This document shows, in pieces, positions 9,479 through 23,351 of a stretch of DNA of 64,000 nt. This stretch comes from Chloroflexota bacterium. GTDB taxonomy: Bacteria > Chloroflexota > Limnocylindria > P2-11E. How positions within the stretch are numbered: position 1 is the first letter of the stretch; every line of letters starts with the position of its first letter. The notes under the pieces were generated by a model that did not search any database, was not told where the DNA came from, and saw nothing but the letters and a program-made list of their open reading frames with translations. The stretch covers positions 20,437-84,436 of the forward strand of contig JAJYLV010000003.1 of assembly GCA_021787445.1 (NCBI GenBank), read 5' to 3'. Made by a program: the position numbers and the translations under genes.

Positions 9479-9982
9479 ATGCGCTACGCGGAGGTGCCCG
9501 ACGTGAAGTGCAGGGAGCGGATCGAGACGTATCTACGCCAGGGCGGTGTCGAGTTCGACGTGCGCGAGCACCCGCTCGCGTTCACCGCGCAGGAGGTCGC
9601 CGGCTCCGAGCACGTGAAGGGGCGCGCCTTCGCGAAGGTCGTCATGGTCGTCGCCGACGGAGAGATGCGCATGATCGTTCTGCCGGCGTCCGAGAAGCTG
9701 AGCTTCGAGAGGCTCACGCGGGCCATCCGAGCGAAGAACGTCCGGCTGGCGAGCGAAGACGAGTTCGCGGGGCGCTTCGCGGATTGCGACCCCGGCGCGA
9801 TGCCGCCCTTTGGGCACCTCTACGGGCTCTCCGTCGTGATGGACGACACGCTCGCGACGAATGAGCGGATCGTGTTCCGTCTCGGGAGCCACACGACGAC
9901 GATGACGATGCGCTACGACGACTTCCAGCGCATCGAGAAGCCACGGCTGGCCGACCTCGGCGTCGCCCCCATCGCCGTGTGA
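9479..9982 (+). CDS. YbaK/ProX-type aminoacyl-tRNA deacylase (Cys-tRNA(Pro) deacylase-like)
   Basis: 167 aa; ...GRAFAKVVMVVADGEMRMIVLPASEKLSFERL...MPPFGHLYGLSVVMDDTLATNERIVF matches the YbaK/ProX editing domain. Confidence 0.65.
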   Translation: MRYAEVPDVKCRERIETYLRQGGVEFDVREHPLAFTAQEVAGSEHVKGRAFAKVVMVVADGEMRMIVLPASEKLSFERLTRAIRAKNVRLASEDEFAGRFADCDPGAMPPFGHLYGLSVVMDDTLATNERIVFRLGSHTTTMTMRYDDFQRIEKPRLADLGVAPIAV

Positions 9983-10317
9983 TACACGTCCGCTCTTGAC
10001 CAGCACCGGGCCAGGCTCGCGCGCGGCGTTGCCGGGCGACTCGCCCTGCCCTCCGCTATGAGTAGGGACATCCAGACCACCGCGTAACGCCGCCGGCATC
10101 GGCTGACGCTAGATCCCCGCGATCGCGCATGGTCCCTCCTGCCGAAGGGCTCGGTCTCATGCTCGCTCCGCACCGGCCGACGACCCTTCGATACATGGAA
10201 GGAGCCATCTGGCCGGTACCTCGTACCGCGACTTCCCCATTCACTTCCCGTTCAACTCCGTAGATCATGCGGTGCGGGTGGTGGTCCGCGGATGGGCGAT
10301 CTAGGGGAGGTCCGATC

Positions 10318-11007
10318 ATGCAATGCCAGCGAGGAAGCGGTGCAGGGATCCTCGTGGTCGATCTTGAGGGCGAGGTTTTCGGCACGCTGCATCGCCTCGA
10401 TCTCGGCGTCCCTCTCTGGTGCGTCGCGGACGCATCGCGCGTCACCCGCGTCGAGGACATGGCCCTGGCGATAGCGGCTACGTACGCGGCGGTCGACTGG
10501 GGCGCGATCCTGAGCCTGGCCAGCCGAGCGCGGACGATGATCGTCTCCCGCGTCCCGGCGCGCGGCGACGCGCTCCACGCTCTCTCGTGCGGGCTCATGG
10601 GATACCTCGCCGCGGACCTCGGTCCCGACGCGCTCCGGCGGTCGATCGAGGGAGCTCTGCGCGGTGAGCACGCGTACCAGAGGGACCTCGTCGGCGAATG
10701 GCTCGACCTGCAGCGTGGACGGAGCCCGAACGGGGACGTGCACGGGCTGACCCCCAGGCAGCTCGAGGTCCTCACCTTGGTGGCTCGTGGCGCGGCCGAC
10801 AAGGAGATCGCTCTCACGCTCGGCATCAGCACGGCGACCGCACAGAAGCACGTGACGAACATCCTCGAGCGGCTGCGGGTGCCGAACCGGGCCGCCGCGG
10901 TCGCCGCCGCGTTCAGCCCGGCCGCGAGCTGGATCGGAATAGATCGTGGCCGGCCCGAGGAGGACGTGGACCCGGTCCCGGTCGCACCGGGCTATGCGCG
11001 CGTCTAG
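10318..11007 (+). CDS. LuxR-family transcriptional regulator (atypical receiver + HTH)
   Basis: C-terminal LuxR HTH LTPRQLEVLTLVARGAADKEIALTLGISTATAQKHVTNILERLRV. N-terminal receiver-like ILVVDLEGE. The track ORF starts at 10267; MQCQ at 10318 is preferred. Confidence 0.65.
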   Translation: MQCQRGSGAGILVVDLEGEVFGTLHRLDLGVPLWCVADASRVTRVEDMALAIAATYAAVDWGAILSLASRARTMIVSRVPARGDALHALSCGLMGYLAADLGPDALRRSIEGALRGEHAYQRDLVGEWLDLQRGRSPNGDVHGLTPRQLEVLTLVARGAADKEIALTLGISTATAQKHVTNILERLRVPNRAAAVAAAFSPAASWIGIDRGRPEEDVDPVPVAPGYARV

Positions 11008-11680
11008 CGCGCTGCTCGTGCTGTGCGTCGCCGCTCTCGGGGCCGCGGCGACCGGCGAGGCGTCGGGGGTCGCCCCTGCGCAGCAGGTCCCGTCCAGCGG
11101 TCCCCTCCTCTCCCCGGACGTCGATGCGGGAGTGACAAGCGGGCCGGTCGCTCCGCTCCCGCCGACGTCCGGACCACCGATGGAGACGCCGACGATGACA
11201 CCGACCGCGACGGCGGAGCCGGCGCCGGCCGCGAGCGGATCGCCGTCGCCCGCGGCGATCCGGGCGGATCTGCGCCTGCAGCTCCCGCGTCTCGGCATCG
11301 ACCTGCCGCTCGTCATCGGCGATGTCACTCGGGACACGCCGGGACCGGCTTACCCGGGCGGCACGCCGGAGCGCGTCGCGCTCATCTACCCGACGAGCGC
11401 GCTTCCGGGGAGCGGTGGGAACACGTACGTCTACGCCCACGCCCGCCGAGGCATGTTCCTCTCGCTCTGGGGCGCGCAGCTGGGCGACACGCTGCGCATC
11501 CGATCGGAGAGCGCGGGGTCGGTGCTGACGTACACCGTCACGCGGGTCGTGCCGCGAGTGCCGCCGACCGACACGAGCTGGCTCGATCAGGGTGGGCCCG
11601 AGCGCGTGACGCTTCAGACCTCGACCGGCGCGCTCCCGACCGATCCCCGTTTCGTCGTCGTCGCCGTGCGTGATCGGTAG
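10994..11680 (+). CDS. Sortase-fold protein (class E/F-like) with Ser in place of catalytic Cys
   Basis: Signal/anchor MRASSALLVLCVAALGAAATG followed by a Pro/Thr-rich linker. Sortase-like core GNTYVYAHARRGMF...LGDTLRI...VLTYTVTRV...ERVTLQTSTG...R (His and Arg conserved; TLXTC is TLQTS). Start set at the ATG at 10994 inside track ORF 10946. Confidence 0.55.
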   Translation: MRASSALLVLCVAALGAAATGEASGVAPAQQVPSSGPLLSPDVDAGVTSGPVAPLPPTSGPPMETPTMTPTATAEPAPAASGSPSPAAIRADLRLQLPRLGIDLPLVIGDVTRDTPGPAYPGGTPERVALIYPTSALPGSGGNTYVYAHARRGMFLSLWGAQLGDTLRIRSESAGSVLTYTVTRVVPRVPPTDTSWLDQGGPERVTLQTSTGALPTDPRFVVVAVRDR

Positions 11681-11767
11681 CGCGCGTACGGCGACCGCAT
11701 GACCCGCTGGGGGATGCGGTAAGCACTCGGTATTGACGTACCGCGACGGGTAGCGTGCGATCGACGC

Positions 11768-12388
11768 GTGGGCCTGAGGGTCTGCGTCGTCGACCGCTCT
11801 GACGGCCGCGCGGCGTATCCGCGCCTCGACGAAGCGAAGGTCGACGTGATGGCGCACGTCCCGCGCGTCGAGCTCTTCTCGCCGGATCTCGCGCGCGCCT
11901 ACGACGTCGTTCTGCTCGGCGCGCTGGGCAGCGACGCCGCGCGACCCGCCTGGCAGGAAGCGATCCGGCACGTGACGCTCGTCCGGCCCACGCTCGCGGT
12001 CGTGGAGAGCTCGGACGTCGGCACGATCGCGCTCCTGGCGCCCGTCACGGGCCTGCGGGGATGCGTCGACCGCGCGGTCACCCCCGACGCGATGCGCCGC
12101 AGCCTCGAGGTGGTGGCCAGAGGCGAGACCGCGTTCCCGCATGCCGCGGTCTCGTCGCTCCTGCAGGCGGACCGCGGCTCACGCGCCACGATCCGCCTGC
12201 GGCTCACGCCTCGGCAGCAGGAGATCGCCGAGCTCATCGCGCAGGGCGCGACGGATCGGGAGATCGCGCGCACCCTCCACATCAGCGAGTCGACGGCGCA
12301 CAAGCACGTCCAGAACGCGCTGCGTCGCCTCGGCGCGCGGACGCGGAGCCACCTCGTTGCACGCATGGGGTCCATCTCGTCTACCTAG
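11768..12388 (+). CDS. LuxR-family response regulator, atypical (phospho-Asp position not conserved)
   Basis: Receiver-like N-terminus LRVCVVDRSDG...DVVLLGALG. C-terminal LuxR HTH LTPRQQEIAELIAQGATDREIARTLHISESTAHKHVQNALRRLG. Confidence 0.65.
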   Translation: MGLRVCVVDRSDGRAAYPRLDEAKVDVMAHVPRVELFSPDLARAYDVVLLGALGSDAARPAWQEAIRHVTLVRPTLAVVESSDVGTIALLAPVTGLRGCVDRAVTPDAMRRSLEVVARGETAFPHAAVSSLLQADRGSRATIRLRLTPRQQEIAELIAQGATDREIARTLHISESTAHKHVQNALRRLGARTRSHLVARMGSISST

Positions 12389-12453
12389 ACGACCGAGCGC
12401 GCGGTCGATCTTCGGTATTCCTCCCACCGTCCACGGTCCATACGGTGCCGCGC

Positions 12454-12876
12454 ATGAGCCCCAGGCCGGTGGGACTCCATGGTGACGGCGGGCAGAGCCT
12501 CGTCGAGATCGCTCTTGCCCTTCCGCTGCTGCTCGCCGTCGTCGTCGGGATCGCCGACGTCGCCTCCGTCTACCGCCGCACGATCGCGGTCACGAACGCC
12601 GCTCGCGAGGCGGCGATGTTCGCCGTCCGCGAGCCCGGCGCGACGCTGACCCAGGTCGTCCAGCGCGCCTGCGACGAGATGAGCGGCACCCTGGACGCGC
12701 CCTGCCCTCCCGAGGTGACGGTCACGGCCTCGCCCATCCCGTCGCGCGGCGCCACCGTCAGGGTGGACGTCGTCTACCGGTTCACGCCGATGTCGCTGAC
12801 GCTCGTCGAGCGTCTCCTGCCGAGCGCGGAGATCCCCATCCGTGCCGCCGTGGTCTTCCCGGGGTACGGACGATGA
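12454..12876 (+). CDS. TadE-like pilus assembly protein
   Basis: 140 aa; N-terminus GQSLVEIALALPLLLAVVVGIADVASVYRR is typical of the TadE/TadF pseudopilin-like family. ATG at 12454 inside track ORF 12061. Confidence 0.7.
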   Translation: MSPRPVGLHGDGGQSLVEIALALPLLLAVVVGIADVASVYRRTIAVTNAAREAAMFAVREPGATLTQVVQRACDEMSGTLDAPCPPEVTVTASPIPSRGATVRVDVVYRFTPMSLTLVERLLPSAEIPIRAAVVFPGYGR

Positions 12877-13322
12877 GGATCGGACGCGCGGGCGAGCGCG
12901 GCGTCAGCACCGTCGAGCTCGCGCTCATGCTGCCCGTCGTCCTCGTCCTGCTCCTCGGCTCTCTCGACCTCGCACGCGTGATGAACGCGGAGCTCGTCGT
13001 CAGCTCGGCGAGCCGCGAGGGCGCACGGTACGCGACGCTCCATCCCAGCGCGGCGCCGGCGGCGATCGTCGACGCGGTGCTCGCGAGGTCGGTGCCGCTG
13101 GATCGCGAACGGGTCGTCGTGAGCGCGAGCTACGACGAGGGTGCGGGAGCGCTGCCGTGGCCCGAGACGGGCCTCCCGGCGTCCGGCGCCACCGCCCGCC
13201 GCATCGCCGTCACCGTGGACGTCGCCTATCCCTGGCGCGCGGCGACGTTCTTCGGCGGCTCGATCCTGGGGCGGAGCGGGGTGCGGCTGGGTTCGACGTC
13301 AACGATGGAGGCGTGGTGGTGA
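12873..13322 (+). CDS. TadE-like pilus assembly protein (second copy)
   Basis: 149 aa; GVSTVELALMLPVVLVLLLGSLDLARVMNAELVVSSASREGARYA; start ATGA-coupled to upstream stop. Confidence 0.7.
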   Translation: MRIGRAGERGVSTVELALMLPVVLVLLLGSLDLARVMNAELVVSSASREGARYATLHPSAAPAAIVDAVLARSVPLDRERVVVSASYDEGAGALPWPETGLPASGATARRIAVTVDVAYPWRAATFFGGSILGRSGVRLGSTSTMEAWW

Positions 13323-14851
13323 ACCATCCGAAGGGCATCCTGAGCCGGACCGAGGGGCAGAGCCTCGTGATCGTCGCCCTCTCGATGATCGTCCTCATCG
13401 GCGCCCTCGCGTTCGCGATCGACTGGGGCTACGGGCTCACGCAGCGGCGAGCGATGTCGAACTCCGCTGAGGCCGGCGCACTCGGCGCCGGTGTGCTCCT
13501 CGCGCGCTCCGTGGTGCCCACGACCGACGGCTTCGTCTTCAGCCGTTCTCAGGAGGAGACCTACTGCGCCGCGGAGGCCGCCGCCGCGCTCGACCGTGAC
13601 TTCGCGCCGGCGGGGGCCGAGTACTCGCTGACCGTCGAAGGCTTTGCCGACCGCGCGACGCAGCCGGCCTGGAGCCTCAGCGGCATCGCGTGCCCGGCCG
13701 CCTCGCGCACGACCCTCCCGATCGAGACCCGCACGCTCCGCGTCGTCGCGACGGTGAGCTACCGCTCCCTCATCGCATCGGTCGTCGGCTGGCCGCAGAT
13801 GACGGCCGCCGGCTCGATCCGGGCGCGCATCGTGGGCGTGCCCTACGACGCGTCCGGACGGAACGTCTGGCCGATGGTCCGCCACTACGACGCGAGCGAC
13901 CTGGTGCAGAAGTGCGACGATCCGTGCGATCCCCTCGGCGCCGAGCCGTTCACGTTCTGGTCGCCGCAAGGCACCGAGCCGAACATGGTCTACGGCAACT
14001 TCAAAGGCCAGGTCGACCTTTCGAAGCGGTCCTCGCGCGAGCCGGACCCGACGATCGACCAGCTGATCCACCAGTGGGATGAGAGCGGATCGCCCGAGGC
14101 GGGCACGCAGCCGAAGCCGGACCTCAGCGGCAATTGCAAGGGCTCCTGGGACACCATCGGCGGCGACGACGAGAGCGTCGACAAGCAGTGCAGCATCCCG
14201 AACTGGTTCTATTACTTCTTCGGCGGGGAGCTGAGCCTCGACGAAGCACCGACCGGCCACCCCGGCGCGGAGCCGCCGAGCCCGATCGGGCCGCGGCCGA
14301 CCATCTGCGCCGACGTGCCCGGCTGGATAGAGGCACCGTCGTGCGCGCCCGGCAAGGCAGGCGTCGGCGACTGGGTCGAGACGGCGACGGGCAACGTCGG
14401 CGTCAACAACTCCGAGCTCATGGTCGAGGCGATCCGACGGGCGTATGCCGAGGGCTACGGCTTCACGACGCCGTACTCCGACCTTCCGGTACCCGGCAAG
14501 CAGAACATGGTCTTCGGCAAAGCCCTCGTCGTCACGATCTTCATGTGGGACTGCGCGGAGACCTACTCGTCGAACGCGCCGCAGGGTGAGCGCTGGTCCC
14601 TCATCGACGGCGGCACGCTGCCCGACGGCACGAACGACTGCTCGCAGATCCCTCAGACGGGGAGCACGCCGATGCCCGACCGTGTGCACCTGTTCACCGT
14701 CGTGCCCTTCACCTTCTACGAGGGGCTCATCGAGACGAGCTCCATCCGCGGCTACTGGGGCGGAGCGGTGGGGTCCGCCGACGGCTGCCCCACCGGCGAC
14801 TGCTCGCTGGACCCGCTGACCAACACCGTGATCTTGAGACCGGATGAGTGA
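13313..14851 (+). CDS. TadG-like / pilus-assembly protein with N-terminal Tad pseudopilin segment
   Basis: N-terminus KGILSRTEGQSLVIVALSMIVLIGALAFAIDWGYGLTQRRAMSNSAEAGALGAG (TadG/Tad_N-like), then a large Cys-rich extracellular domain. Likely GTG start at ~13313-13319, in frame with track ORF 12842. Confidence 0.6.
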   Translation: MVVNHPKGILSRTEGQSLVIVALSMIVLIGALAFAIDWGYGLTQRRAMSNSAEAGALGAGVLLARSVVPTTDGFVFSRSQEETYCAAEAAAALDRDFAPAGAEYSLTVEGFADRATQPAWSLSGIACPAASRTTLPIETRTLRVVATVSYRSLIASVVGWPQMTAAGSIRARIVGVPYDASGRNVWPMVRHYDASDLVQKCDDPCDPLGAEPFTFWSPQGTEPNMVYGNFKGQVDLSKRSSREPDPTIDQLIHQWDESGSPEAGTQPKPDLSGNCKGSWDTIGGDDESVDKQCSIPNWFYYFFGGELSLDEAPTGHPGAEPPSPIGPRPTICADVPGWIEAPSCAPGKAGVGDWVETATGNVGVNNSELMVEAIRRAYAEGYGFTTPYSDLPVPGKQNMVFGKALVVTIFMWDCAETYSSNAPQGERWSLIDGGTLPDGTNDCSQIPQTGSTPMPDRVHLFTVVPFTFYEGLIETSSIRGYWGGAVGSADGCPTGDCSLDPLTNTVILRPDE

Positions 14852-15587
14852 TGACATGAGGAAGGCTTCAGCGCTTCTTCTTCTGACCGCGTTCGTCCTG
14901 GCCGGCCTGACCGGGTGGTCCATCTACACGATCGCGACGCGCGTCGCACCCCCGCCGGCCGCGGCCGCGGGCCCGGCGGCGGCCCCGAGCGTCGAGGTGG
15001 TCGTCGCCGCGGCGGACATCCCGGTCCGCAGCGTGATCACCGCGAAGCAGCTCGAGCGCCGCTCGCTGCCGGCCGACGCCGTCCCTCCCGCCGCCATCCG
15101 CTCGATGAGCGAGGCGCTCGGCCAGACGACGCTCGTGCCGATCTCCAAAGGACTGCCGATCGTGACGACGACCCTCGTCGCCGCCGAGGGCCGCACGGGC
15201 GCGTCGCTGACGGTCGACCCCGGAAAGGTGCTCGTCGCATTCCCCACCAGCGACCCGCTCACGACGGCCGGCCTCGTCGCGGTCGGCGACCACATCGACA
15301 TCCTCGCCACGATCGCCGTCGGCAAGGGCGAGGACATCAAGAAGACGCAGACGACGCTGCAGGACCTCGAGGTCGTCGAGGTCCTGCGGCCGACGAAGGA
15401 TCAGCCGGGGCGCGTGCAGGCACTGACACTGGAGGTCGACCACCAGGTCGCGCTCGTCCTGAAGTACCTCCGCGACGCCCAGGCGACGATCGACATCGTC
15501 GTGCGCTCGACCGTAGAGCACGCGCTGACCAAGACGACGACGGTCGACACGACCTATCTCGTCGACACGTATGGGATCACGCGATGA
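14844..15587 (+). CDS. cpaB: Flp pilus assembly protein CpaB/RcpC
   Basis: 247 aa; N-terminal TM, then SAF-like AAADIPVRSVITAKQLERRSLPADAVPPAAI and a beta-rich C-terminus; positioned upstream of cpaF. Confidence 0.7.
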   Translation: MSDDMRKASALLLLTAFVLAGLTGWSIYTIATRVAPPPAAAAGPAAAPSVEVVVAAADIPVRSVITAKQLERRSLPADAVPPAAIRSMSEALGQTTLVPISKGLPIVTTTLVAAEGRTGASLTVDPGKVLVAFPTSDPLTTAGLVAVGDHIDILATIAVGKGEDIKKTQTTLQDLEVVEVLRPTKDQPGRVQALTLEVDHQVALVLKYLRDAQATIDIVVRSTVEHALTKTTTVDTTYLVDTYGITR

Positions 15588-16996
15588 ACGCCGTACACAC
15601 TCCTATCGGTGATCTTCACGCCGCCCTCGAGCGGGCCCGTCGGCCCCGGGCCGACGCCGTCGTTCCGGCGACGGCCGTCAAGGCGCCTTCGTCCAACGAC
15701 GGCATCGAGCGAGCCGGCTGCGCGAGGGTGCGCACGGAGAAGGAACAGGAGCTCGTCCATTCCGTCCACACCCGCGTGACGCCGGCGCTCGGCCGTCTCG
15801 GGGACGAGATGTCGCGCGACGCGCTGAATACGGCGCTGCAGGACGAGATCGCGACGGCCGTGAGCGAGCAGGACCTGCGCGTGACCGACGAGGACCGCGG
15901 CCGTCTGCTCGGGGCCGTCCTCGACGAGCTCGTCGGGCTGGGGCCCATCCAGGTCCTCGTCGACGACGACGACCTCACTGAGGTGATGGTCAACGGACCG
16001 GAGCAGGTGTGGATCGAACGCAACGGCAAGCTCTTCCTCACGGACGTGCGCTTCCGGGACGCCGACCACGTCACGCGGATCATCCAGCGCATCGTCGCCC
16101 CCATCGGCCGACGCTGCGACGAGTCGTCGCCCATGGTCGACGCGCGCCTCGCCGACGGCTCGCGTGTCAACGCGATCATCCCGCCGCTCTCCCTCGTCGG
16201 ACCCGTGCTCACGATCCGCAAGTTCCGGCGGGCGCCGCTGACCCCCGCCGACCTGCTCCAGAACGGCACGATCGGACCGGAGGCGCTCGAGTTCCTCTCC
16301 GCCTGCGTCCGCGGGCGCCTCAACGTCATCGTCGCCGGCGGAACGGGTGCCGGGAAAACGACGCTGCTCAACACGCTGTCGTCGTTCATCGGAGCGCGCG
16401 AGCGCGTCGTGACCATCGAGGACGCCGCGGAGCTGCGCCTCGCGCAGGTCCACGTCATCACGCTCGAGTCACGGCCCCCGAACATCGAGGGCCAGGGCAC
16501 GGTCACGATCCGAGACCTCTTCCGGAACGCGCTGCGCATGCGACCGGATCGCATCGTCATCGGCGAGTGCCGCAGCGCCGAGGCCCTGGACATGCTCCAG
16601 GCGATGAACACCGGCCACGACGGATCGCTCACGACCATCCACTCCAACGGTCCGCGCGACGCGCTCGCGCGGGTCGAGACGATGGTCCTCCTCGCCGCCG
16701 ACCTCCCGCTGCGCGCCATCCGCGAGCAGATCGCGGCGGCCATCGACCTCGTCGTCTACGTCGAGCGCATGCAAGACGGACAGCGCCGCGTCACGCAGAT
16801 CACCGAGGTACGCGGGATGGAGGGCGAGATCATCACGATGCAGGACATCTATTCGTTCCAGCGGCGCGGCTTCGACGGCGAGCGCATCAGCGGTGCCCTT
16901 CTCCCGACCGGCATCCGGCCCGGATCCGCCGAAAAGCTCATGGCGCACGGGATCGACGTGCCGCCGAAGTGGTTCGGCTACGGGGACGCGCGGTGA
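15584..16996 (+). CDS. cpaF: Tad secretion ATPase CpaF/TadA
   Basis: Walker A VAGGTGAGKTTLLN, Walker B/Asp box RVVTIEDAAEL, His box, and NTGHDGSLTTIHSNGPRDALARVETMV; typical T2SS-E/VirB11-like. ATG at 15584 (ATGA overlap with the cpaB stop). Confidence 0.85.
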   Translation: MNAVHTPIGDLHAALERARRPRADAVVPATAVKAPSSNDGIERAGCARVRTEKEQELVHSVHTRVTPALGRLGDEMSRDALNTALQDEIATAVSEQDLRVTDEDRGRLLGAVLDELVGLGPIQVLVDDDDLTEVMVNGPEQVWIERNGKLFLTDVRFRDADHVTRIIQRIVAPIGRRCDESSPMVDARLADGSRVNAIIPPLSLVGPVLTIRKFRRAPLTPADLLQNGTIGPEALEFLSACVRGRLNVIVAGGTGAGKTTLLNTLSSFIGARERVVTIEDAAELRLAQVHVITLESRPPNIEGQGTVTIRDLFRNALRMRPDRIVIGECRSAEALDMLQAMNTGHDGSLTTIHSNGPRDALARVETMVLLAADLPLRAIREQIAAAIDLVVYVERMQDGQRRVTQITEVRGMEGEIITMQDIYSFQRRGFDGERISGALLPTGIRPGSAEKLMAHGIDVPPKWFGYGDAR

Positions 16997-17799
16997 CCGT
17001 GCCGGAGCCTCTGGTCCCCGCCGTCCTCGGTGCGGCCGCGATGGCCACCGCTGTCGTCGCGCTGTGGACGCCGGGATGGCGCCGACGGCACGTTCTCGGA
17101 CAGCTCGTCTCCCGGCTCGTCGACGAGCGCGGCCTGGCGCGGGACCTCGGCGGCGGCCGCCGACGCTCGTCGCGCCTCGCTCCCGTCCCGACGCGGACCG
17201 GCCCGATCGACCGGATCGCGCGGACGCTCGCGTCGCTGTCGCCGTGGGAGCGGAGGCGACGCTCGCGGTTCCGCGAACAGCTCGCCGATAGCCTTTCCCT
17301 GCTCGCGAGCTCGGTGCGGGCGGGGCACACGCTGGTGCAGGCGTTCGAGCAGCTCGCGCGCGAGGCGCCCGCGCCGACGGGCGCGGCGTTCGCGGCCGTC
17401 GTGCGCGAGATCGGTCTCGGCGCCGCTCACGACGACGCTCTGCACCGCCTCGCACGCCGCTTCCCTTCGGAGGAGGTCGACCTCTTCGTCACCGCGGTGA
17501 ACGTGCAGGACCAGGTCGGCGGCAGCCTCGCGAAGGTCCTCGACTCGATCGCCTACACGCTGCGCGAGCGCGCGCGCATCGAAGGCGACATCCGCGCGCT
17601 CACGGCGCAGCAGCGCTACTCGGCGTACGTGCTCGCGCTCCTGCCCGTCGCCGTCGCCGCGATGCTCACCCTCGTCGGCCCCGACTACATGGCACCGCTG
17701 TACGAGCCCGGGGCACTGCGGATCGTGCTGGTCCTCGCGGGACTCCTGATCCTCGTCGGGTTCCTGATCATGCGCCGGATCGCGGCGATCGATGTCTAG
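16993..17799 (+). CDS. tadB: Tad pilus assembly inner-membrane protein TadB (T2SS-F domain)
   Basis: GTG at 16993 overlapping the cpaF stop; N-terminal TM, then T2SSF-like LADSLSLLASSVRAGHTLVQAFEQLAREAP...VNVQDQVGGSLAKVLDSIAYTLRER, and C-terminal TMs. Confidence 0.75.
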   Translation: MTVPEPLVPAVLGAAAMATAVVALWTPGWRRRHVLGQLVSRLVDERGLARDLGGGRRRSSRLAPVPTRTGPIDRIARTLASLSPWERRRRSRFREQLADSLSLLASSVRAGHTLVQAFEQLAREAPAPTGAAFAAVVREIGLGAAHDDALHRLARRFPSEEVDLFVTAVNVQDQVGGSLAKVLDSIAYTLRERARIEGDIRALTAQQRYSAYVLALLPVAVAAMLTLVGPDYMAPLYEPGALRIVLVLAGLLILVGFLIMRRIAAIDV

Positions 17800-19693
17800 G
17801 CGGATGGCCGCGGCGCTCGCGGTCGCCGCGTTGCTGCTGGCGCTGGCGACACCGGCCCTCGCCGACGACGTCGTCCGCCTCGTCGTGACCTCGACGGACG
17901 TGACCGCGTTCCCGCAGGTCGCGCTCACGCTGGCCGTCAGCGGACCGGACGGCCGCCCTGTCGTCCTCGATCCGTCCGAGATCGAGGTGTGGGTGGCGGG
18001 CGAGCGGCTCGCCGCGACCGTCAGCTCGAGCGTCGAAGCGCGTCCGGTGGACGTCGTCCTGGTGCTCGATCGCAGCGGCAGCATGGCCGGGACGCCGCTC
18101 GCCGATGCCACGCGCGCCGTCGGCTCCTTCCTCGCGCGCCTCGGACCGCGCGACCGCTCGGCGCTCGTCGGGCTGTCGACGCGCGCCGAGGCCGTCCGGG
18201 CCCTCACGACCGACCGCGCCTCCGTCGCCGCGGCGGCCACCCGCCTCTCAGCCAGCGGCGATACGGCGCTCTACGACGCGGTCGCTCTGGCTGCCCGCCA
18301 GCTTGACGAGGGCGGCCGTGCGCAGGCGCGGCAGGCGATCCTCGTCCTGACCGACGGGCACGACACCGCCAGCGCGACCTCGCCGGCGGATCTTCAGCCT
18401 CTCGTCGCGCATCGCGCCGTACACGTCGTCGCGCTCGGCGCGGCGCCCGACCTGGACGCTCTCAAGCGGCTCGCCGCCGCGAGCAGCGGAGGGACCGTCG
18501 TCCGCGCTCCCACGTCCGCGCAGCTCGACGCGATCTACGCCTCGCTCGCCGAGAAGCTGCGGGCGGACACCGGCGTTCGCTTCCGGTTCGCGACCGAGCA
18601 GTACGCGCCGGAGATGACCGTCGTCGTCGTCGCCCGCCGTGAGGGGAGCGTGATCGGACGGACCCAGCTCGTCATCCCGCTGCCAGTGCGGATCCCCGAC
18701 ACGGGCGCGATGCCGGCGACGACCGCCGCGCCGCAGATCGTGCCCGCGGTAGCGATGGTCACGACGCCAGATGCGAGCGGACGCGACCGACCGCTCATCG
18801 CCGGTCTTCTCGCTTCGGCGACGAGCCTCGCGCTCGTGGCCTGGGCACTCTCCGCCTTCGGGACGGCGGCCCGCCATGGCGCGCCCATCGAGAACGTGCC
18901 GCTCGCGTCGCCGGCCCGACGCCGCGGCACGTCCTCGATGCGCGCGCGGCGCACGATCCGCGGCATCGCCACCGGCGCGGCCCGGCTCACCCGCTCGAAG
19001 CCGTCACCCTCCGCGGATCTCCAGCTCGATCGGGCCGGGCGTCCGTTCGGCCTCGATCCGCTCGAGCTCACCGGGATGCGGCTCATCATCGTCGGCGGGC
19101 TCGCGGCCCTCGCGTTCGGCGGTGCGGTCGTCATCGGAGCGGACGGCATCGGGATCACGGCGTCCGCCGCATGGGGCGTCGTGGCGGGCTACGCGCTCCC
19201 CACGGTCGTCATCCGCGTCGCGACGACCGCGCGGCAGACCGCCATACGTCGGGCGCTGCCGACGACGCTCGACATGCTCACCCTCTGCGTCGAGGCCGGG
19301 CTGTCGCTCGACGGAGCGCTGGCCCACGTCTCGCGGCGCTCGCGCGGACCGCTCTACGACGAGATCGAGCGGCTCCTCCTCGAGCTGCAGATGGGCGTCG
19401 ACAGGCGAGACGCGCTACGTCACCTCGCGCTGCGCTGCGACGTGCCCGAGGTCACCCGTCTGGTGAACGCGATGCTCCAGGCGGAGGTCCTCGGCGTCGG
19501 CATCGGCCGTGCTCTCCAGGACCAGGCCCAGGAGGTGCGCACGCGCCGCCGTCAGCGTGCCGAAGCGCTCGCGCGTACCGCCCCGGTGAAGATGCTGTTC
19601 CCCATCGTCCTCCTCATCTTCCCCGCGATGTTCGTCGTCATCCTCGGCCCCGCCGTCCCCCGCCTCGCGGCGATCTTCGACGTCGCCCGCTAG
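17792..19693 (+). CDS. vWA domain fused to TadC (T2SS-F domain) pilus assembly protein
   Basis: Signal peptide (ALATPALA|DD). vWA with MIDAS VLDRSGSM...SGDTALYDAVA...LVLTDGHD. TM segment (PLIAGLLASATSLALVAWALSAF). TadC/T2SSF domain LPTTLDMLTLCVEAGLSLDGALAHVSRR...AMLQAEVLGVGIGRALQDQAQEVR plus terminal TMs. Confidence 0.7.
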   Translation: MSRRMAAALAVAALLLALATPALADDVVRLVVTSTDVTAFPQVALTLAVSGPDGRPVVLDPSEIEVWVAGERLAATVSSSVEARPVDVVLVLDRSGSMAGTPLADATRAVGSFLARLGPRDRSALVGLSTRAEAVRALTTDRASVAAAATRLSASGDTALYDAVALAARQLDEGGRAQARQAILVLTDGHDTASATSPADLQPLVAHRAVHVVALGAAPDLDALKRLAAASSGGTVVRAPTSAQLDAIYASLAEKLRADTGVRFRFATEQYAPEMTVVVVARREGSVIGRTQLVIPLPVRIPDTGAMPATTAAPQIVPAVAMVTTPDASGRDRPLIAGLLASATSLALVAWALSAFGTAARHGAPIENVPLASPARRRGTSSMRARRTIRGIATGAARLTRSKPSPSADLQLDRAGRPFGLDPLELTGMRLIIVGGLAALAFGGAVVIGADGIGITASAAWGVVAGYALPTVVIRVATTARQTAIRRALPTTLDMLTLCVEAGLSLDGALAHVSRRSRGPLYDEIERLLLELQMGVDRRDALRHLALRCDVPEVTRLVNAMLQAEVLGVGIGRALQDQAQEVRTRRRQRAEALARTAPVKMLFPIVLLIFPAMFVVILGPAVPRLAAIFDVAR

Positions 19694-19940
19694 CCGCCGG
19701 CGCGGCATACCTGCGATCCGGTAACACCTCACGCGCGTCTACTCACTCCCGACCCACCCCGCCATCGATCAAGGGGCCATACCGAGATCGGGGTGCTCGA
19801 TCCGGGCCGCTCTACCCATCTCAACGGATCGAGATCGATCCCCTGGATCCGTACGTTCGCCGCACATGCGCAGAACGATCGACGTGTCACGCACACGCGG
19901 CGCTACGGCGAGCGTGCGCTGACCGGGAAGGGGATCCTCG

Positions 19941-21686
19941 GTGTCCACGCTCCGTCCATTCAGGGCCATCGCGTTCGTTGCGGCCGTCTCGCTCCTGTTC
20001 GCCCTGTCGAATGTCGCGTACCTGCGACCGACGTCGAAGGAGGCGGCCGTGGCCGCGGCCGCGAGCCTCAATGTCGATCTCGACCAATGCGCCAACCTTT
20101 CGACGCCATGCCACTGGCAGAACGGGGACCTGAACAAGAACAACTCCGCCTACTACGAAGGCGATGTCGTCCCATTCCGCCTCGTCATCAACGACCTCGC
20201 GATGGGCAAGCACAGCATCCACATCGATTACGACTTCCTCGCGGGGAACCCCGGACACGTCGCGTACGACTTCCTCGCGCGCTACGACGCCACCGAGTCG
20301 GTCGACCCCTGCGGCGCTAATGGCGACGCGGACTCGCCGCTGTGCAACGCCGCCCTGCCGACGCCGATCGCGGTCGCCATCCCCCCGGACGCCTCGGAGC
20401 CGTTCACGGGCCTCACCGTGAGCGGAGCGGAGACGGCGTCCGGCCTCTCGCGGCAGCTGGTGATGTACGGCGCGATCGACACCGTGACCGACCAGCCGAC
20501 GGTGAGTGCGCCGACGGTCGCCAGCTCCAGCACGCGGGATGTCGTCGTCACCTTCTGGACGACCACGGGCAACGCCGACGTCATGCTCCTCTGGGGCGGC
20601 CACCTGGCGACCACCGCGTACTGGGACAGCTCGGGCCCCGGAGGCGCCCAGGAGATCTCGGGCGCCAGCTGGCACATGCGCACGCAGAACCTCGACGATG
20701 CCCCTGCCAGCAAGAACCAAGACAGGAGCGTCAACTCGAGCGCCCTGCCCACACCGACGCCGACGCCCACACCGACGCCGACGCCCACACCGACGCCGAC
20801 GCCCACACCGACGCCGACGCCCACGCCCACGCCCACGCCCACGCCCACGCCCACGCCCACGCCGACACCCACGCCGACGCCGACACCCACACCGACGCCG
20901 GCACCGGTACCCGTGTACGGGCCCGTCTACCTCGCGCCACCCGTCCCGCTCGTCGGAACGCTCGTCGTCATCCACTACGACGACCTCAACAAGAACGCCA
21001 TGCGGGACACCGCGGAGATCGGGCTCCTCGGCAGCTTCTCGGTGCTGCACAACGGCGCCCCGACCGCCGTCATCACGACAGACCCGACCGGTACCGTCAG
21101 CCTCACGCTCGCTCCCGGCACCTACGCGGTGCGGGAGAGCCTCGAGTCCGGCTGGTACAGCATCGACCCGGGCGGCATGACGCCGACGAAGACCGTGACC
21201 ATCGTCGCGGGCCAGACGACGACCGTGTCGTTCGGCTGCGCTCGTGTGCTCATCCCGTCGACGTCGCAGGGCGTACGCATCCAGGTCCGGACGTACGAGG
21301 ATCGCGACCACGACGGCAGCCTCGACACCGGCGAGCCCGGCCTCGCGGGCTGGACCTTCTCGGTCTTCGACTCGCAGGGCGCGACCGTCGCCGGCGTCAC
21401 GACCGATGCTCAGGGCAGCGCGACGACGATCGCCCTCGCACCCGGTGCCTACACCATCGTGCAGCAGCCGCAGGCCGGCTGGTTCAACACCGACCCAGGC
21501 ACGGCGTCAGCATCGAAGCAGACCCTCCTCGTCTCGGAGCCGGTGACCGTGATCTTCGGCAACGCGCGAGTGGAGCTTCCGTCGACCTCCACCGATCCCG
21601 CGGACGATGGCGCGCCCGGATCGTCGACCGTTCTCTTCCTGACGCTGGCCGTCGTCTCCGTCGCGCTGCGCCGGGCCATCGGCTGA
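19941..21686 (+). CDS. Secreted/cell-surface protein with PT-repeat linker and tandem Cna-B/SdrD-B-type domains and C-terminal anchor-like signal
   Basis: GTG start; signal peptide [20 protein letters not shown]; ~45 (PT)n residues; two repeats with [20 protein letters not shown]-type Ca-binding B-domain signatures. C-terminus [37 protein letters not shown] (motif + hydrophobic segment + basic tail). Confidence 0.7.
20747..20910 (+). repeat. Tandem nucleotide repeat encoding (Pro-Thr)n linker (18-bp cccacaccgacgccgacg units then 6-bp cccacg units)
   Basis: Directly visible in the sequence at 20749-20905; produces the spurious MGVGVGV ORF on the opposite strand. Confidence 0.9.
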
Positions 21687-21746
21687 CACCCATCCCTTCC
21701 CCACCCACCAGCATCGGAGCGGGCCGTGAGCCCGCTCCGATGCGGC

Positions 21747-22376
21747 CTATCGGGCCTGGACGATGAGCACCGGGCCGCACGCGCTCGAGGTGAGGCTCGT
21801 CTGCAACGTGAGCGGTGCGAGGGGGAGCACGGGCTGCGTGCATCCGGCCTGCTGGAACGCTCCCGTGACGTGATACGTGAAGCCATCCGCGGTGACAGCG
21901 TCACCCGCGCTCCAGCCGGCGATGCGTCCGAAGCCGGTGTAGGCGTGACCCATGAGATAGCGGTCGGACAGGCAGGTGAAGCTGCGGATCTGCGTTCCGA
22001 CGTCCGTACGTCCGCTGCAGTCCGTGTACGGGACGATCGGGCCGGCGATGCCGAGCCGCGGGTAGCAGAACCAGGTGCCCGGACATGCGGCGGGCGCCGC
22101 GGAGCGGGCGACCGGCGCGCCGGCCGTCGCGTTCGGCCCGGCGGGCATGGGGACCCTGGCGGACGACAGCGCGGTCGGAACGGGCCGCGCCGGCGGCACA
22201 GGCTCGGGCGACGTCGCCGCTGAGGTCGATCCTTCGGTCGGCCCGACCGATGTGGACGGCTCGCTCGGTGTCGGCGACGGCAAGGCGCCGACCACAACGG
22301 GCCCGGGAGTAGCGCCGTGCGCCGCCTCCACGCACCCCGCCCCACCCACTGCCACCGCAAGAAGGAGCGCCGCCAT
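21747..22376 (-). CDS. Sortase-fold protein paralog (Ser at canonical Cys position), lipoprotein-like N-terminus
   Basis: ATG at 22376 inside track ORF 21747..22709. MAALLLAVAVGGAGC signal, Pro/Ser/Thr-rich linker, core YLMGHAYTGFG...GDAVTADGFTYHVTG...PLTLQTSLTSSACGPVLIVQAR, parallel to the protein at 10994. Confidence 0.5.
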   Translation of the reverse strand: MAALLLAVAVGGAGCVEAAHGATPGPVVVGALPSPTPSEPSTSVGPTEGSTSAATSPEPVPPARPVPTALSSARVPMPAGPNATAGAPVARSAAPAACPGTWFCYPRLGIAGPIVPYTDCSGRTDVGTQIRSFTCLSDRYLMGHAYTGFGRIAGWSAGDAVTADGFTYHVTGAFQQAGCTQPVLPLAPLTLQTSLTSSACGPVLIVQAR

Positions 22377-22524
22377 CGCTCGTCCCCTCGGAGGCTTCAC
22401 GGCGATACGGCTCCGGTACGAGCGGCGCCGGGCGTCGTGCCCCAGCGCCCGAGAAGACGCGGCTTGATGTGCTCGGGGCGAAGGGGCTCGCGCAGGAGCG
22501 GATCGTCGAGCAGGTGGATCTGGG

Positions 22525-23301
22525 CTAGCCCTCCGGCACCGTGCCCGCGAGCTCGCGCAGCAGGACGGTACGCGAACGCTCGGGCTTCGTCCGCCGCGGA
22601 TCCCCGAGATAGATCTCCACGTGCCGGTCGGCGCACACCAGGCCGTGCCGCTCGATCTCGTCACGGATCTTCGCGAGGCTCGCGCTCTCCGTCGCGTACG
22701 GACCGACATGGAGGATCCGTCCGACGCGCTGGCGCGGCAGCCGCTCCAGCCGTGCGTGCCGCGCCTCCGTGCTCCTCTCGAGCGCGCCGCCGCGCTTCGT
22801 CGTGACGGCCTCTACCGCCCGCGAGAGCTCGCTCTTCGTGACGTCGCGCGGGACGGCGATACGGAGGGTCCAGCGCCAGCTGCGGCGCGGCGCGCGCGAG
22901 CACGGGAGGACCTGATCGGACCACCAGCGTCCTTCGAGCGGGCCGATCGCGAACTCGCCGCGCCCGTCGCGCTTGCGCCGGAGCGCGAGGGAGAGCGCCA
23001 GGCCGTACGCCGCGCGGAGCGCGCTCTGGAACCGGACGCTTCCGGGCTCCCCCTCACCGTCGATCGCGATCACCGAACGCGCGGGGATGCCGACGATGTC
23101 CGCGGCGACCGTCGCGTCGAGGAGCTCGTGGGGCACGGGCAGCTCAGCGCTTGCCGCGCTCGCACGCTGAGCGCGCGCAGGCGGCCGGCGCGCGATGACG
23201 GCCACGCGTCGATGGTGCGAGCCCGCCGAGGGAGGGCTAGAGCCGTTCGGCGGTAGCGCCGACCGACCCCCAGGGACGGATCCCCGATCCCATGCGGCCA
23301 T
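22525..23301 (-). CDS. GyrI-like small-molecule-binding domain protein
   Basis: Tandem GyrI-like halves ([15 protein letters not shown]... and [27 protein letters not shown]...[25 protein letters not shown]). N-terminal 40-60 aa doubtful; start uncertain. Confidence 0.5.
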
Positions 23302-23351
23302 GAGCCGAATGCCCCTCTGACGGGGCCGCGCCGCGGACGAGCATCGGCGTC

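What the first reader, a model, noticed from the sequence alone, without database searches (positions are those of the whole stretch)
12454..19693. Non-canonical Tad/Flp locus: vWA domain fused to TadC, no CpaE/TadZ, prepilin peptidase or flp pilin visible
The locus reads tadE-tadE-tadG-like-cpaB-cpaF-tadB and then a single 633-aa ORF. That ORF encodes a Sec signal peptide, a vWA domain with an intact MIDAS motif (DRSGSM...SGDT...TDGHD), a TM segment and a complete TadC T2SS-F domain. This places an extracellular vWA adhesion/metal-binding module on the platform protein itself. The usual ParA-like CpaE/TadZ, TadV/CpaA peptidase, secretin RcpA and a Flp pilin gene are absent from the locus; a <60-aa flp could be missed by the ORF track. 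The locus is flanked by two LuxR-type regulators with degenerate receiver domains.
Basis: partly seen in the sequence, partly recalled or inferred. Interest (0 to 1): 0.6.

Follow-up and report, generated by a model that had tools for sequence, protein, structure and literature searches.

The report
Tad pilus operon with vWA-tagged TadC
This is a real pilus-assembly (Tad) operon from a soil Chloroflexota bacterium in which one membrane "platform" protein carries an outward-facing metal-binding vWA domain, a design that is common in sequence databases but that I could not find described in the papers searched.

Summary
Window 12454-19693 is one translationally coupled operon: tadE-tadE-tadG-like-cpaB-tadA-tadB, then a 633-aa ORF. 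That ORF is Sec signal peptide + beta-sandwich/vWA ectodomain (intact MIDAS) + Pro/Ala/Thr linker + a complete TadC.

The fusion is not an artefact. Coding periodicity is unbroken. A second assembly gives a 99.8% identical protein. Orthologues at 67, 62 and about 40% identity have the same architecture.

It is not rare as a design. At least 145 50%-identity clusters carry the same ectodomain on TadB (Actinomycetota loci with flp, tadZ and tadV). Other Chloroflexota Tad loci encode it as a stand-alone vWA-Ig-TM-FHA-like protein. The TadC-borne form is the uncommon variant, seen in Limnocylindria-type soil Chloroflexota.

No tadZ, A24 peptidase or flp lies anywhere in the 64 kb. However, sister vWA-TadC loci do have tadZ, so its loss is specific to this subclade. 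Off-locus flp/tadV and the absence of a secretin are normal for monoderms.

Best reading: the vWA module is an optional extracytoplasmic binding or sensing unit wired to the Tad motor. This is inferred, at about 35% likelihood.

The parts
10354..11007 (+). LuxR/GerE-type regulator 1; the N-terminal domain is unassigned
   Evidence: Pfam GerE 7e-14. No Response_reg hit at E<=0.1. Conserved in L002, L004, L010, L012, L093, L094.
10946..11680 (+). Sortase-like protein with Ser at the catalytic Cys position (TLQTS). NCBI starts it at 10994.
   Evidence: Pfam Sortase 3e-11. The Ser aligns with the Cys of a class C sortase, and His and Arg are kept. 119 of 120 listed homologues have TLQTS.
11768..12388 (+). 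LuxR/GerE-type regulator 2
   Evidence: Pfam GerE 2e-13. Conserved synteny.
12454..12876 (+). TadE-like pseudopilin 1, with class III signal-like G/QSLVE followed by a hydrophobic helix
   Evidence: Pfam TadE 1e-9. Motif found.
12873..13322 (+). TadE-like pseudopilin 2 (G/VSTVE)
   Evidence: Pfam TadE 9e-14. Motif found.
13319..14851 (+). TadG-like protein: a pilin-like N-terminal helix plus a Cys-rich globular domain of about 450 aa that is not a vWA fold
   Evidence: PF13400. AF2 pLDDT 88.9, pTM 0.85. No PDB fold match better than E=0.18. 98 homologues, those that carry a source name being Chloroflexota or soil metagenome.
14856..15587 (+). CpaB/RcpC (SAF + RcpC domains)
   Evidence: Pfam RcpC and SAF. 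TIGR03177 at 90.5 bits, above the cut-off of 71.
15584..16996 (+). TadA/CpaF-type secretion ATPase. It follows cpaB directly, with no tadZ between them.
   Evidence: T2SSE 2e-60. TadA-family model TIGR03819 1e-100, below its cut-off.
16993..17799 (+). TadB platform protein (268 aa, no ectodomain)
   Evidence: T2SSF 2e-17. Its closest relatives are the vWA-bearing TadB of Actinomycetota.
17792..19693 (+). vWA-TadC fusion, 633 aa
   Evidence: Pfam VWA + T2SSF. Full-length orthologues. AF2 model.
17792..17863 (+). Sec-type signal peptide (residues 1-24, ...ALA/DD)
   Evidence: Read directly from the sequence; hydropathy.
17864..18688 (+). Ectodomain: a beta-sandwich (residues 29-79 and 260-296) enclosing the vWA domain (residues 86-258). 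MIDAS codons: D93 at 18068-18070, T158 at 18263-18265, D188 at 18353-18355.
   Evidence: AF2 pLDDT above 90 over the vWA domain. Foldseek hits to vWA structures 4fx5, 6fpy, 8s05 and 1atz. MIDAS residues invariant.
18689..18787 (+). Pro/Ala/Thr-rich disordered linker (residues 300-332)
   Evidence: pLDDT below 50. Least conserved segment, 33-36% identity.
18788..19693 (+). Canonical TadC: first TM (residues 333-357), cytoplasmic loop, TM hairpin, T2SSF domain (residues 493-618), last TM
   Evidence: Aligns end to end with stand-alone TadC proteins, whose own N-terminal TM matches TM1.
19941..21686 (+). Secreted surface protein: signal peptide, (TP)n linker, two SdrD_B/SpaA domains each followed by PSTS, then a C-terminal TM + RRAIG (sorting-signal-like)
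   Evidence: Pfam SdrD_B 2e-14 and SpaA 1e-8. A homologue sits directly downstream of TadC in L002, L004, L014 and L094; L093 has a larger SpaA/SdrD_B protein there.
21747..22709 (-). Second sortase-like paralogue (TLQTS; NCBI calls only 21747-22148)
   Evidence: Alignment A2. Orthologues in L002, L004 and L094. No Pfam hit.

Best explanation
This is a monoderm-type Tad (type IVc) pilus assembly operon of a soil Chloroflexota lineage. Its second platform gene encodes an ordinary TadC whose naturally extracytoplasmic N-terminus has been extended. The extension is a Sec signal peptide, a beta-sandwich + vWA ectodomain with an intact MIDAS site, and a flexible linker of about 33 residues. The vWA domain therefore sits just outside the membrane, tethered to the motor's platform.

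The same ectodomain is a movable module of Terrabacterial Tad loci. It is fused to TadB in Actinomycetota. It is fused to TadC here. In other Chloroflexota it is a stand-alone membrane protein with a cytoplasmic FHA-like domain.

The most likely function (inferred) is an optional partner-, ligand- or force-binding unit. It would use its MIDAS site outside the cell and be coupled across the membrane to the TadB/TadC-TadA motor, to gate, stabilise or position pilus assembly. It is not a pilus-tip adhesin of the CpaL/TadG kind.

The pseudopilins carry class III signal motifs, so a prepilin peptidase must exist elsewhere, and probably the Flp pilin too. tadZ was lost in this subclade.

Shown: the gene content, the reality of the fusion, the topology, MIDAS conservation, the three genomic contexts, and the distribution. 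Inferred: what the vWA domain binds and that it regulates the motor. Likelihood: identity of the system about 0.95; the mechanism about 0.35.
For: Domains and operon structure. Fusion reality: a second assembly is 99.7% identical in DNA, with 1 aa difference in this gene. A partial copy from a third record spans the junction (P0002). Orthologues of 633-655 aa exist at 67, 62, 41 and about 40% identity. Every segment is conserved except the linker. MIDAS residues are invariant, and DxSxS is present in 147 of 148 representatives. Topology. Plain TadC proteins start with the same TM, so the fusion is a simple N-terminal extension. Abundance: 15,477 hits at E<=1e-30; the top 150 are nearly all full-length, and 145 of 148 are TadB-type. 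Canonical flp-tadE-tadG-rcpC-tadZ-tadA-(vWA)tadB-tadC loci, some with an A24 peptidase. Stand-alone SP-vWA-Big_7-TM-FHA-like genes sit about 1 kb upstream of cpaB-tadZ-tadA-tadB-tadC in 12 Chloroflexota/Dehalococcoidia loci. The window ectodomain is closer to these (6e-29) than to the actinobacterial fusions (2e-15). The TadG-like protein here is not a vWA fold. Literature: vWA domains in T4P systems act in adhesion and mechanosensing (PMC12607857). FHA-vWA pairs regulate archaella (PMC4858521). FHA proteins are enriched in Myxococcus Tad-like kil clusters (PMC12428579).
Against: There is no experimental or co-variation evidence for any ligand or for signalling through TadC. A sister locus of the same type (L094) has a plain TadC and no vWA gene within 10 kb, so the module is dispensable for this machine. 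The linker is at most about 12 nm when extended, which limits reach to the wall zone. That fits a machine-proximal role but does not prove one. With no flp, tadV or tadZ in 64 kb, I cannot show that this particular operon makes a pilus. The FHA-like assignment is below Pfam's cut-off (25.9 bits against 33.2).
Confidence: 0.45

Rival explanations
1. The vWA ectodomain is a structural part of the extracytoplasmic pilus conduit. It would dock through its MIDAS site to the CpaB/RcpC ring or to the TadE/TadE/TadG priming complex. It would thereby replace the alignment components that monoderms lack, with no sensing role.
For: It is tethered to the platform directly under the pilus base. RcpC forms a periplasmic conduit in Pseudomonas (PMC12307814, abstract seen). 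How the minimal monoderm Tad machine is held together is an open question (PMC6916266).
Against: L094 has the same locus type and works with a plain TadC. The stand-alone form carries a cytoplasmic FHA-like domain, which points to signalling rather than scaffolding. No interaction was tested.
Confidence: 0.25
2. The vWA domain is simply a cell-proximal adhesin or wall/matrix binder. It would use TadC as a membrane anchor and as a means of co-expression, and would be functionally independent of pilus dynamics.
For: vWA/MIDAS domains are generic adhesion modules (PMC12607857). The locus also encodes an SdrD_B adhesin-like protein.
Against: The same ectodomain has been joined three times to Tad-specific partners (TadB, TadC, and an FHA-like protein in Tad loci). 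That is hard to explain without functional coupling. The short linker cannot reach far beyond the envelope.
Confidence: 0.15
3. The operon is a decaying remnant: tadZ lost, no pilin, no peptidase. The fusion would then have no current function in this organism.
For: tadZ, flp and A24 are absent from 64 kb. tadZ is present in sister loci.
Against: All seven ORFs are intact and translationally coupled. The TadZ-less arrangement is conserved in three MAGs at 62-67% protein identity. The two near-identical assemblies differ by few substitutions. M. luteus makes Tad pili without tadZ (PMC6916266).
Confidence: 0.08
4. The vWA-TadC ORF is an assembly or frameshift artefact that joins two genes.
For: None was found.
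Against: Coding periodicity is unbroken. The same ORF is present in independent assemblies. At least 10 orthologous single ORFs of 633-682 aa carry both domains.
Confidence: 0.01

Closest known systems
Monoderm Tad/Flp (type IVc) pilus loci, e.g. Bifidobacterium breve tad2003, Micrococcus luteus tad, and the Chloroflexales rcpC-tadZABC + tadEEG + flp arrangement
   Same: TadA ATPase, paralogous TadB/TadC platform proteins, TadE-type pseudopilins, TadG-like protein and CpaB/RcpC. No secretin. The peptidase, and in Chloroflexales flp too, is encoded elsewhere. M. luteus also lacks tadZ (PMC6916266, PMC7332563).
   Different: TadC carries a secreted vWA ectodomain. No tadZ. The locus type includes two Ser-sortase-like genes and an SdrD_B surface protein.
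vWA-TadB fusion proteins of Actinomycetota (e.g. Spirillospora, Catellatospora, Kribbella, Micromonosporaceae). They are annotated only as 'type II secretion system F family protein', 'VWA domain-containing protein' or 'tight adherence protein B'.
   Same: A homologous signal peptide, beta-sandwich/vWA/MIDAS ectodomain, linker and TM, fused to a Tad platform paralogue. Length about 620-680 aa.
   Different: There the bearer is TadB, the first platform gene, and the loci have flp, tadZ and sometimes tadV. Here the bearer is TadC.
CpaL/TadG-type vWA minor pilins (Caulobacter CpaL; PilY1/PilC1 in type IVa pili)
   Same: A MIDAS vWA domain associated with a type IV pilus machine. These are proposed to act in adhesion and mechanosensing (PMC12607857).
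   Different: CpaL is a pilin-like protein with a prepilin-peptidase site and is predicted to sit at the pilus tip. Here the vWA domain has a Sec signal peptide and stays tethered to the membrane platform. The TadG-like protein of this locus has no vWA fold.
ArnA (FHA) / ArnB (vWA) regulators of the Sulfolobus archaellum
   Same: A vWA + beta-sandwich fold (8s05 is among the top structural matches). A vWA-FHA pairing is linked to a type IV filament machine. The stand-alone Chloroflexota homologue is vWA-TM-FHA-like.
   Different: ArnA and ArnB are cytoplasmic, are separate proteins and are never encoded in T4P loci (PMC4858521). Here the vWA domain is extracytoplasmic, and the window protein has no FHA domain.

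Membership tests
Tad/Flp (type IVc) pilus system | TadA/CpaF-type secretion ATPase | tested here: met
   T2SSE 2.4e-60. The best NCBIfam match is the TadA-family model TIGR03819, 334.7 bits, below its equivalog cut-off of 373.
Tad/Flp (type IVc) pilus system | Two paralogous platform proteins, TadB and TadC (specific to type IVc; PMC6916266) | tested here: met
   Two adjacent T2SSF genes. Reciprocal phmmer separates a TadB type from a TadC type. JGI names agree.
Tad/Flp (type IVc) pilus system | TadE/TadF pseudopilins and a TadG-like protein | tested here: met
   PF07811 twice and PF13400. G/xxxxE-type motifs.
Tad/Flp (type IVc) pilus system | CpaB/RcpC | tested here: met
   TIGR03177 at 90.5 bits, above the cut-off of 71.
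Tad/Flp (type IVc) pilus system | TadZ/CpaE (ParA/MinD-like) | tested here: not met
   No CbiA/ParA hit in 64 kb. The cpaB stop overlaps the tadA start. TadZ is present in sister loci L010-L016, L093 and L094.
Tad/Flp (type IVc) pilus system | Flp-type major pilin | tested here: not met
   Regex, phmmer and jackhmmer over all six frames of the window found only the two TadE genes. flp lies directly downstream of vWA-tadC in L013. The rest of the genome could not be searched.
Tad/Flp (type IVc) pilus system | Prepilin peptidase TadV/CpaA (A24) | tested here: not met
   No A24 hit in the window. Genome-wide presence cannot be tested here. The pseudopilin motifs imply that one exists.
Tad/Flp (type IVc) pilus system | Secretin RcpA (diderm systems only) | tested here: not met
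   No secretin domain in the window. This is expected: Chloroflexota are regarded as monoderm (10.1101/2025.08.19.671072) and monoderm Tad systems lack secretins (PMC6668835).
vWA domain with MIDAS | DxSxS...T...D motif on a Rossmann-like alpha/beta fold | tested here: met
   D93, S95, S97, T158 and D188 are conserved. Pfam VWA 2e-15. AF2 pLDDT above 90, with Foldseek matches to vWA structures.
CpaL/TadG-type vWA minor pilin | A pilin-like N-terminal helix with a prepilin-peptidase site preceding the vWA domain | tested here: not met
   The N-terminus is a Sec-type signal (RR, hydrophobic core, ALA/DD), with no G/xxxxE motif. The protein ends in a TadC domain.
Sortase (for 10946-11680 and 21747-22709) | His-Cys-Arg catalytic triad (TLxTC) | tested here: not met
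   The Cys position is Ser (TLQTS) in all 6 locus copies and in 119 of 120 listed homologues. His is kept in both paralogues. Arg is kept only in the first paralogue.

The most novel reading that the evidence does not exclude
The beta-sandwich/vWA(MIDAS) ectodomain may be an unrecognised, modular outside-in input device of Terrabacterial Tad pilus motors. Evolution has plugged the same extracellular binding or force-sensing module into the machine three ways: onto TadB, onto TadC, or through a transmembrane FHA-like adaptor. If so, thousands of actinobacterial and Chloroflexota Tad pili are gated or positioned by an envelope or surface signal read at the base of the machine, and not at the pilus tip. 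In this locus type it may further cooperate with a Ser-nucleophile sortase-like enzyme and an SdrD_B surface protein.
Probability: 0.3. Interest if true: 0.7.

Novelty: new variant of a known kind. Interest (0 to 1): 0.42.

Why it matters
How the minimal Tad machine of single-membrane bacteria is held together, positioned and switched between extension and retraction is an acknowledged open question (PMC6916266). A conserved metal-binding ectodomain hard-wired to the platform protein is a concrete, testable candidate for an input or anchoring element. So is the alternative wiring of that ectodomain to an FHA-like domain. The ectodomain is present in a very large number of Actinomycetota and Chloroflexota genomes and absent from the model systems studied so far. 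The TadB-fused version occurs in cultured actinomycetes, so MIDAS mutants are feasible. For this particular window the finding is mostly a well-behaved member of that large family, with a rarer fusion partner and a subclade-specific loss of tadZ.

Tried and rejected
1. Small-ORF hunt for flp. I searched the intergenic gaps of the window, L002 and L004, ran a whole-window regex, and ran phmmer/jackhmmer with three Flp queries. Only the TadE genes were found.

2. Whole-window Pfam sweep for tadZ and tadV. Nothing was found.

3. Stand-alone vWA hits P0020 and P0022 as possible unfused intermediates. Their contexts are unrelated to Tad, so I rejected them.

4. The idea that the vWA domain had 'moved' from TadG to TadC. 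The TadG-like protein indeed lacks a vWA fold. However, L094 has the same TadG-like protein with a plain TadC and no vWA nearby, so compensation is not supported.

5. Promoter and terminator scan of 9900-23400. It was uninformative.

6. The search for related loci with the 17-sequence alignment failed because it had no conserved stretch. I repeated it with the 4 TadC-type sequences.

8. Literature searches for vWA fused to TadB/TadC/T2SSF found no paper describing it. The library is incomplete, so this is absence of evidence only.

Full report
**Source and gene map**

The window is about 72% G+C. Over 7792-29566 it matches contig JAGWNZ010000010.1 of a Chloroflexota MAG (GCA_028872905.1) at 99.7% identity. 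The only length difference is about 126 bp, in a TP repeat of a downstream gene.

Frame-specific GC3 shows one uninterrupted + strand coding run per gene from 12454 to 19693. Successive genes overlap by 4-10 nt, so this is a translationally coupled operon.

- TadE, 12454-12876
- TadE, 12873-13322
- TadG-like (PF13400), 13313/13319-14851
- CpaB/RcpC (TIGR03177 above cut-off), 14844/14856-15587
- TadA-type T2SSE ATPase, 15584-16996
- T2SSF TadB, 16993-17799
- a 633-aa ORF, 17792-19693, with VWA (residues 87-249) and T2SSF (residues 493-618)

**The fusion protein**

Its N-terminus is a Sec-type signal peptide (MSRRMAAALAVAALLLALATPALA/DD).

Hydropathy and charge bias place residues 25-332 outside the membrane. 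TM1 is at 333-357. A K/R-rich loop (13 K/R against 4 D/E) lies inside. A TM hairpin follows, then the cytoplasmic T2SSF domain and a last TM.

The AF2 model (mean pLDDT 73.8) shows:
- a beta-sandwich built from residues 29-79 and 260-296;
- a vWA domain (86-257, pLDDT above 90) enclosed by that sandwich;
- a disordered Pro/Ala/Thr linker (300-332);
- an all-helical TadC.

Foldseek finds vWA structures. These include a Catenulispora vWA protein (4fx5), ITIH1, the archaeal ArnAB complex, integrin I-domains and vWF A3.

The MIDAS residues D93, S95, S97, T158 and D188 are invariant or at least 90% conserved in 17 homologues that share only 23-68% identity.

Stand-alone TadC proteins begin with a TM helix that aligns with TM1 of the fusion. 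The fusion is therefore a normal TadC whose outward-facing N-terminus was extended by signal peptide + ectodomain + linker.

**Is the fusion real?**

Yes.
- The frame signal is continuous.
- The independent assembly has 2 nucleotide differences and 1 amino-acid difference in this gene.
- A partial copy from another record (P0002, covering 68% of the query) spans the junction.
- Single ORFs of 633-682 aa carrying both domains occur at 67% (L002), 62% (L004), 41% (L007) and about 40% identity (L010-L016, L093).
- Within the close clade every segment is conserved (vWA 62-66%, T2SSF 79-89%). The exception is the linker at 33-36%, as expected for a spacer.

**How common is the design?**

A profile of the 17 sequences, run against 1.84 billion cluster representatives, gave 15,477 hits at E<=1e-30. 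The best 150 are almost all proteins of 620-680 aa matched end to end in one stretch.

Classifying the 148 new sequences:
- 145 have a TadB-type platform domain;
- 147 have a DxSxS motif.

Their loci are canonical (Spirillospora L006, L008, L009, Kribbella L034 and others). The order is flp-tadE-tadG-rcpC-tadZ-tadA-(vWA)tadB-tadC, with an A24 peptidase nearby in L008 and L034.

The TadC-borne form is much rarer. In one genome per GTDB species it was found full-length only in seven Chloroflexota-type MAGs (Limnocylindria and relatives). All other hits were plain TadC proteins.

**A third context**

A vWA profile built from the alignment found a closely related ectodomain in 12 further Chloroflexota/Dehalococcoidia Tad loci. 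There it is part of a stand-alone protein of about 625 aa: signal peptide-vWA-Big_7-TM-FHA-like. The FHA-like part matches Yop-YscD_cpl, an FHA-fold family, at 1e-5, below that family's cut-off.

This gene lies about 1 kb upstream of cpaB-tadZ-tadA-tadB-tadC.

The window's ectodomain is closer to these proteins (phmmer 6e-29) than to the actinobacterial TadB fusions (2e-15).

So the same extracellular module has been wired to the Tad motor in three ways. Conversely, L094 has the same locus type as the window, down to the sortase-like genes and surface protein. Yet it has a plain 317-aa TadC and no vWA within 10 kb. The module is therefore optional.

**The 'missing' genes**

I found no ParA/CbiA, Peptidase_A24, Flp_Fap or secretin anywhere in the 64 kb. 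This rests on Pfam on all called genes plus the NCBI calls. It also rests on a regex and HMM searches of all six frames.

- **tadZ.** It lies between cpaB and tadA in L010-L016, L093 and L094. It is absent in the window, L002 and L004, where cpaB abuts tadA. This is a subclade-specific loss. M. luteus assembles Tad pili without tadZ (PMC6916266).
- **flp.** It is directly downstream of vWA-tadC in L013. It is elsewhere in most relatives. Chloroflexales keep rcpC-tadZABC, tadEEG and flp as separate groups (PMC7332563).
- **tadV.** It is off-locus in B. breve (PMC6916266). The TadE, TadE and TadG-like proteins here have G/QSLVE-, G/VSTVE- and G/QSLVI-type sites, so a prepilin peptidase is required somewhere in the genome.
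- **Secretin.** None is expected in a monoderm (PMC6668835; 10.1101/2025.08.19.671072).

Both GerE regulators are upstream. Between them lies a sortase-like gene (10946-11680).

Downstream of the operon is a 581-aa secreted protein (19941-21686). It has a (TP)n linker and two SdrD_B/SpaA domains, each followed by PSTS. It ends in a sorting-signal-like TM + RRAIG tail.

After that comes a second sortase-like gene on the minus strand (21747-22709).

Both sortase-like proteins have TLQTS where sortases have TLxTC. The Ser aligns with the catalytic Cys of a class C sortase, and His and Arg are retained. 119 of 120 listed homologues, out of 1,322 found, share the Ser.

L093 and L094 confirm the linkage.

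**TadG-like protein**

AF2 gives a confident model (pLDDT 88.9, pTM 0.85). It has a long pilin-like helix and a Cys-rich, mostly beta globular domain. No PDB structure matches better than E=0.18. It is therefore not a CpaL-type vWA minor pilin.

**Mechanism**

Shown: a MIDAS vWA ectodomain is tethered by a short flexible linker to the first TM of TadC, directly at the pilus base. The module is under purifying selection. It is repeatedly coupled to Tad-specific cytoplasmic partners.

Inferred: it binds a partner or ligand outside the membrane and influences the platform/ATPase. Candidates are an acidic residue of an envelope or machine protein, or a surface component. This would be analogous in logic to the vWA proteins CpaL and PilY1 (PMC12607857), but located at the base and not at the tip.

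The stand-alone vWA-TM-FHA-like form favours signalling over pure scaffolding. I put this mechanism at about 0.35. A purely structural docking role is at about 0.25, and an independent adhesin role at about 0.15.

**Novelty**

I found no paper on vWA fused to TadB, TadC or T2SSF. No NCBIfam model covers the fusion as a whole; only its vWA part matched, below cut-off. Source annotations name these proteins generically.

The window's gene is therefore a rarer variant (on TadC, in a tadZ-less subclade) of a very common but unstudied architecture within a known system.

Noticed in passing
window 10946-11680 (+) and 21747-22709 (-); L002, L004, L012, L093, L094: This is a large family of sortase-like proteins (1,322 homologues at E<=1e-3). 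The catalytic Cys is replaced by Ser (TLQTS in 119 of 120 listed). His is kept in both paralogues, and Arg in the first. The genes are systematically linked to this Chloroflexota Tad locus type. They are either Ser-nucleophile transpeptidases or pseudo-enzymes.
   Followed up: partly
window 19941-21686 (+): This is a secreted 581-aa protein with a (TP)n linker and two SdrD_B/SpaA domains, each followed by PSTS (IPSTS, LPSTS). It has a C-terminal TM + RRAIG tail, which makes it a likely substrate of the sortase-like enzymes. A homologue is conserved directly downstream of TadC in L002, L004, L014 and L094; L093 has a larger SpaA/SdrD_B protein there. The TP repeat differs by about 126 bp between the window and GCA_028872905.1.
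   Followed up: partly
L020, L021, L022, L026, L031, L032, L033, L035, L049, L052, L058, L065 (about 2.0-4.7 kb in each locus): Stand-alone proteins of about 625 aa (signal peptide-vWA-Big_7-TM-FHA-like) are encoded about 1 kb upstream of cpaB-tadZ-tadA-tadB-tadC in Dehalococcoidia and other Chloroflexota. Their ectodomain is homologous to the one fused to TadC in the window.
   Followed up: partly
window 13319-14851 (+): [quoted passage not shown] No PDB fold match is better than E=0.18. Those of its 98 homologues that carry a source name are Chloroflexota or soil metagenome.
   Followed up: partly
L012 (DATJHW010000046.1) and L016 (DASQIF010000141.1): These contigs are labelled Candidatus Saccharimonadales and Candidatus Acidiferrales. 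They carry the full Chloroflexota-type GerE-TadE-TadE-CpaB-TadZ-TadA-TadB-vWA-TadC locus, and L012 also the Ser-sortase. Mis-binning is the likely cause; horizontal transfer is the alternative.
   Followed up: no
P0023-P0026, P0027, P0099, P0127: Some representatives are longer. Four TadB-type fusions of about 890 aa have an extra N-terminal region of about 290 aa that matches the profile a second time. Three giant proteins (1,213-3,177 aa, up to 9 matched stretches) have repeated copies of the ectodomain and no platform domain.
   Followed up: no
window 22525-23301 (-): This ORF has gene-like GC3 periodicity, but NCBI did not call it in the sister assembly. Its only hit is a weak GyrI-like match (E 2e-4, below cut-off).
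   Followed up: no
L002 1620-2285 and L004 1622-2371: In the two sister MAGs a CPBP/Rce1-like intramembrane protease gene precedes the GerE-sortase-GerE-Tad block. In the window that position holds a YbaK/tRNA_edit gene (9479-9982) instead.
   Followed up: no
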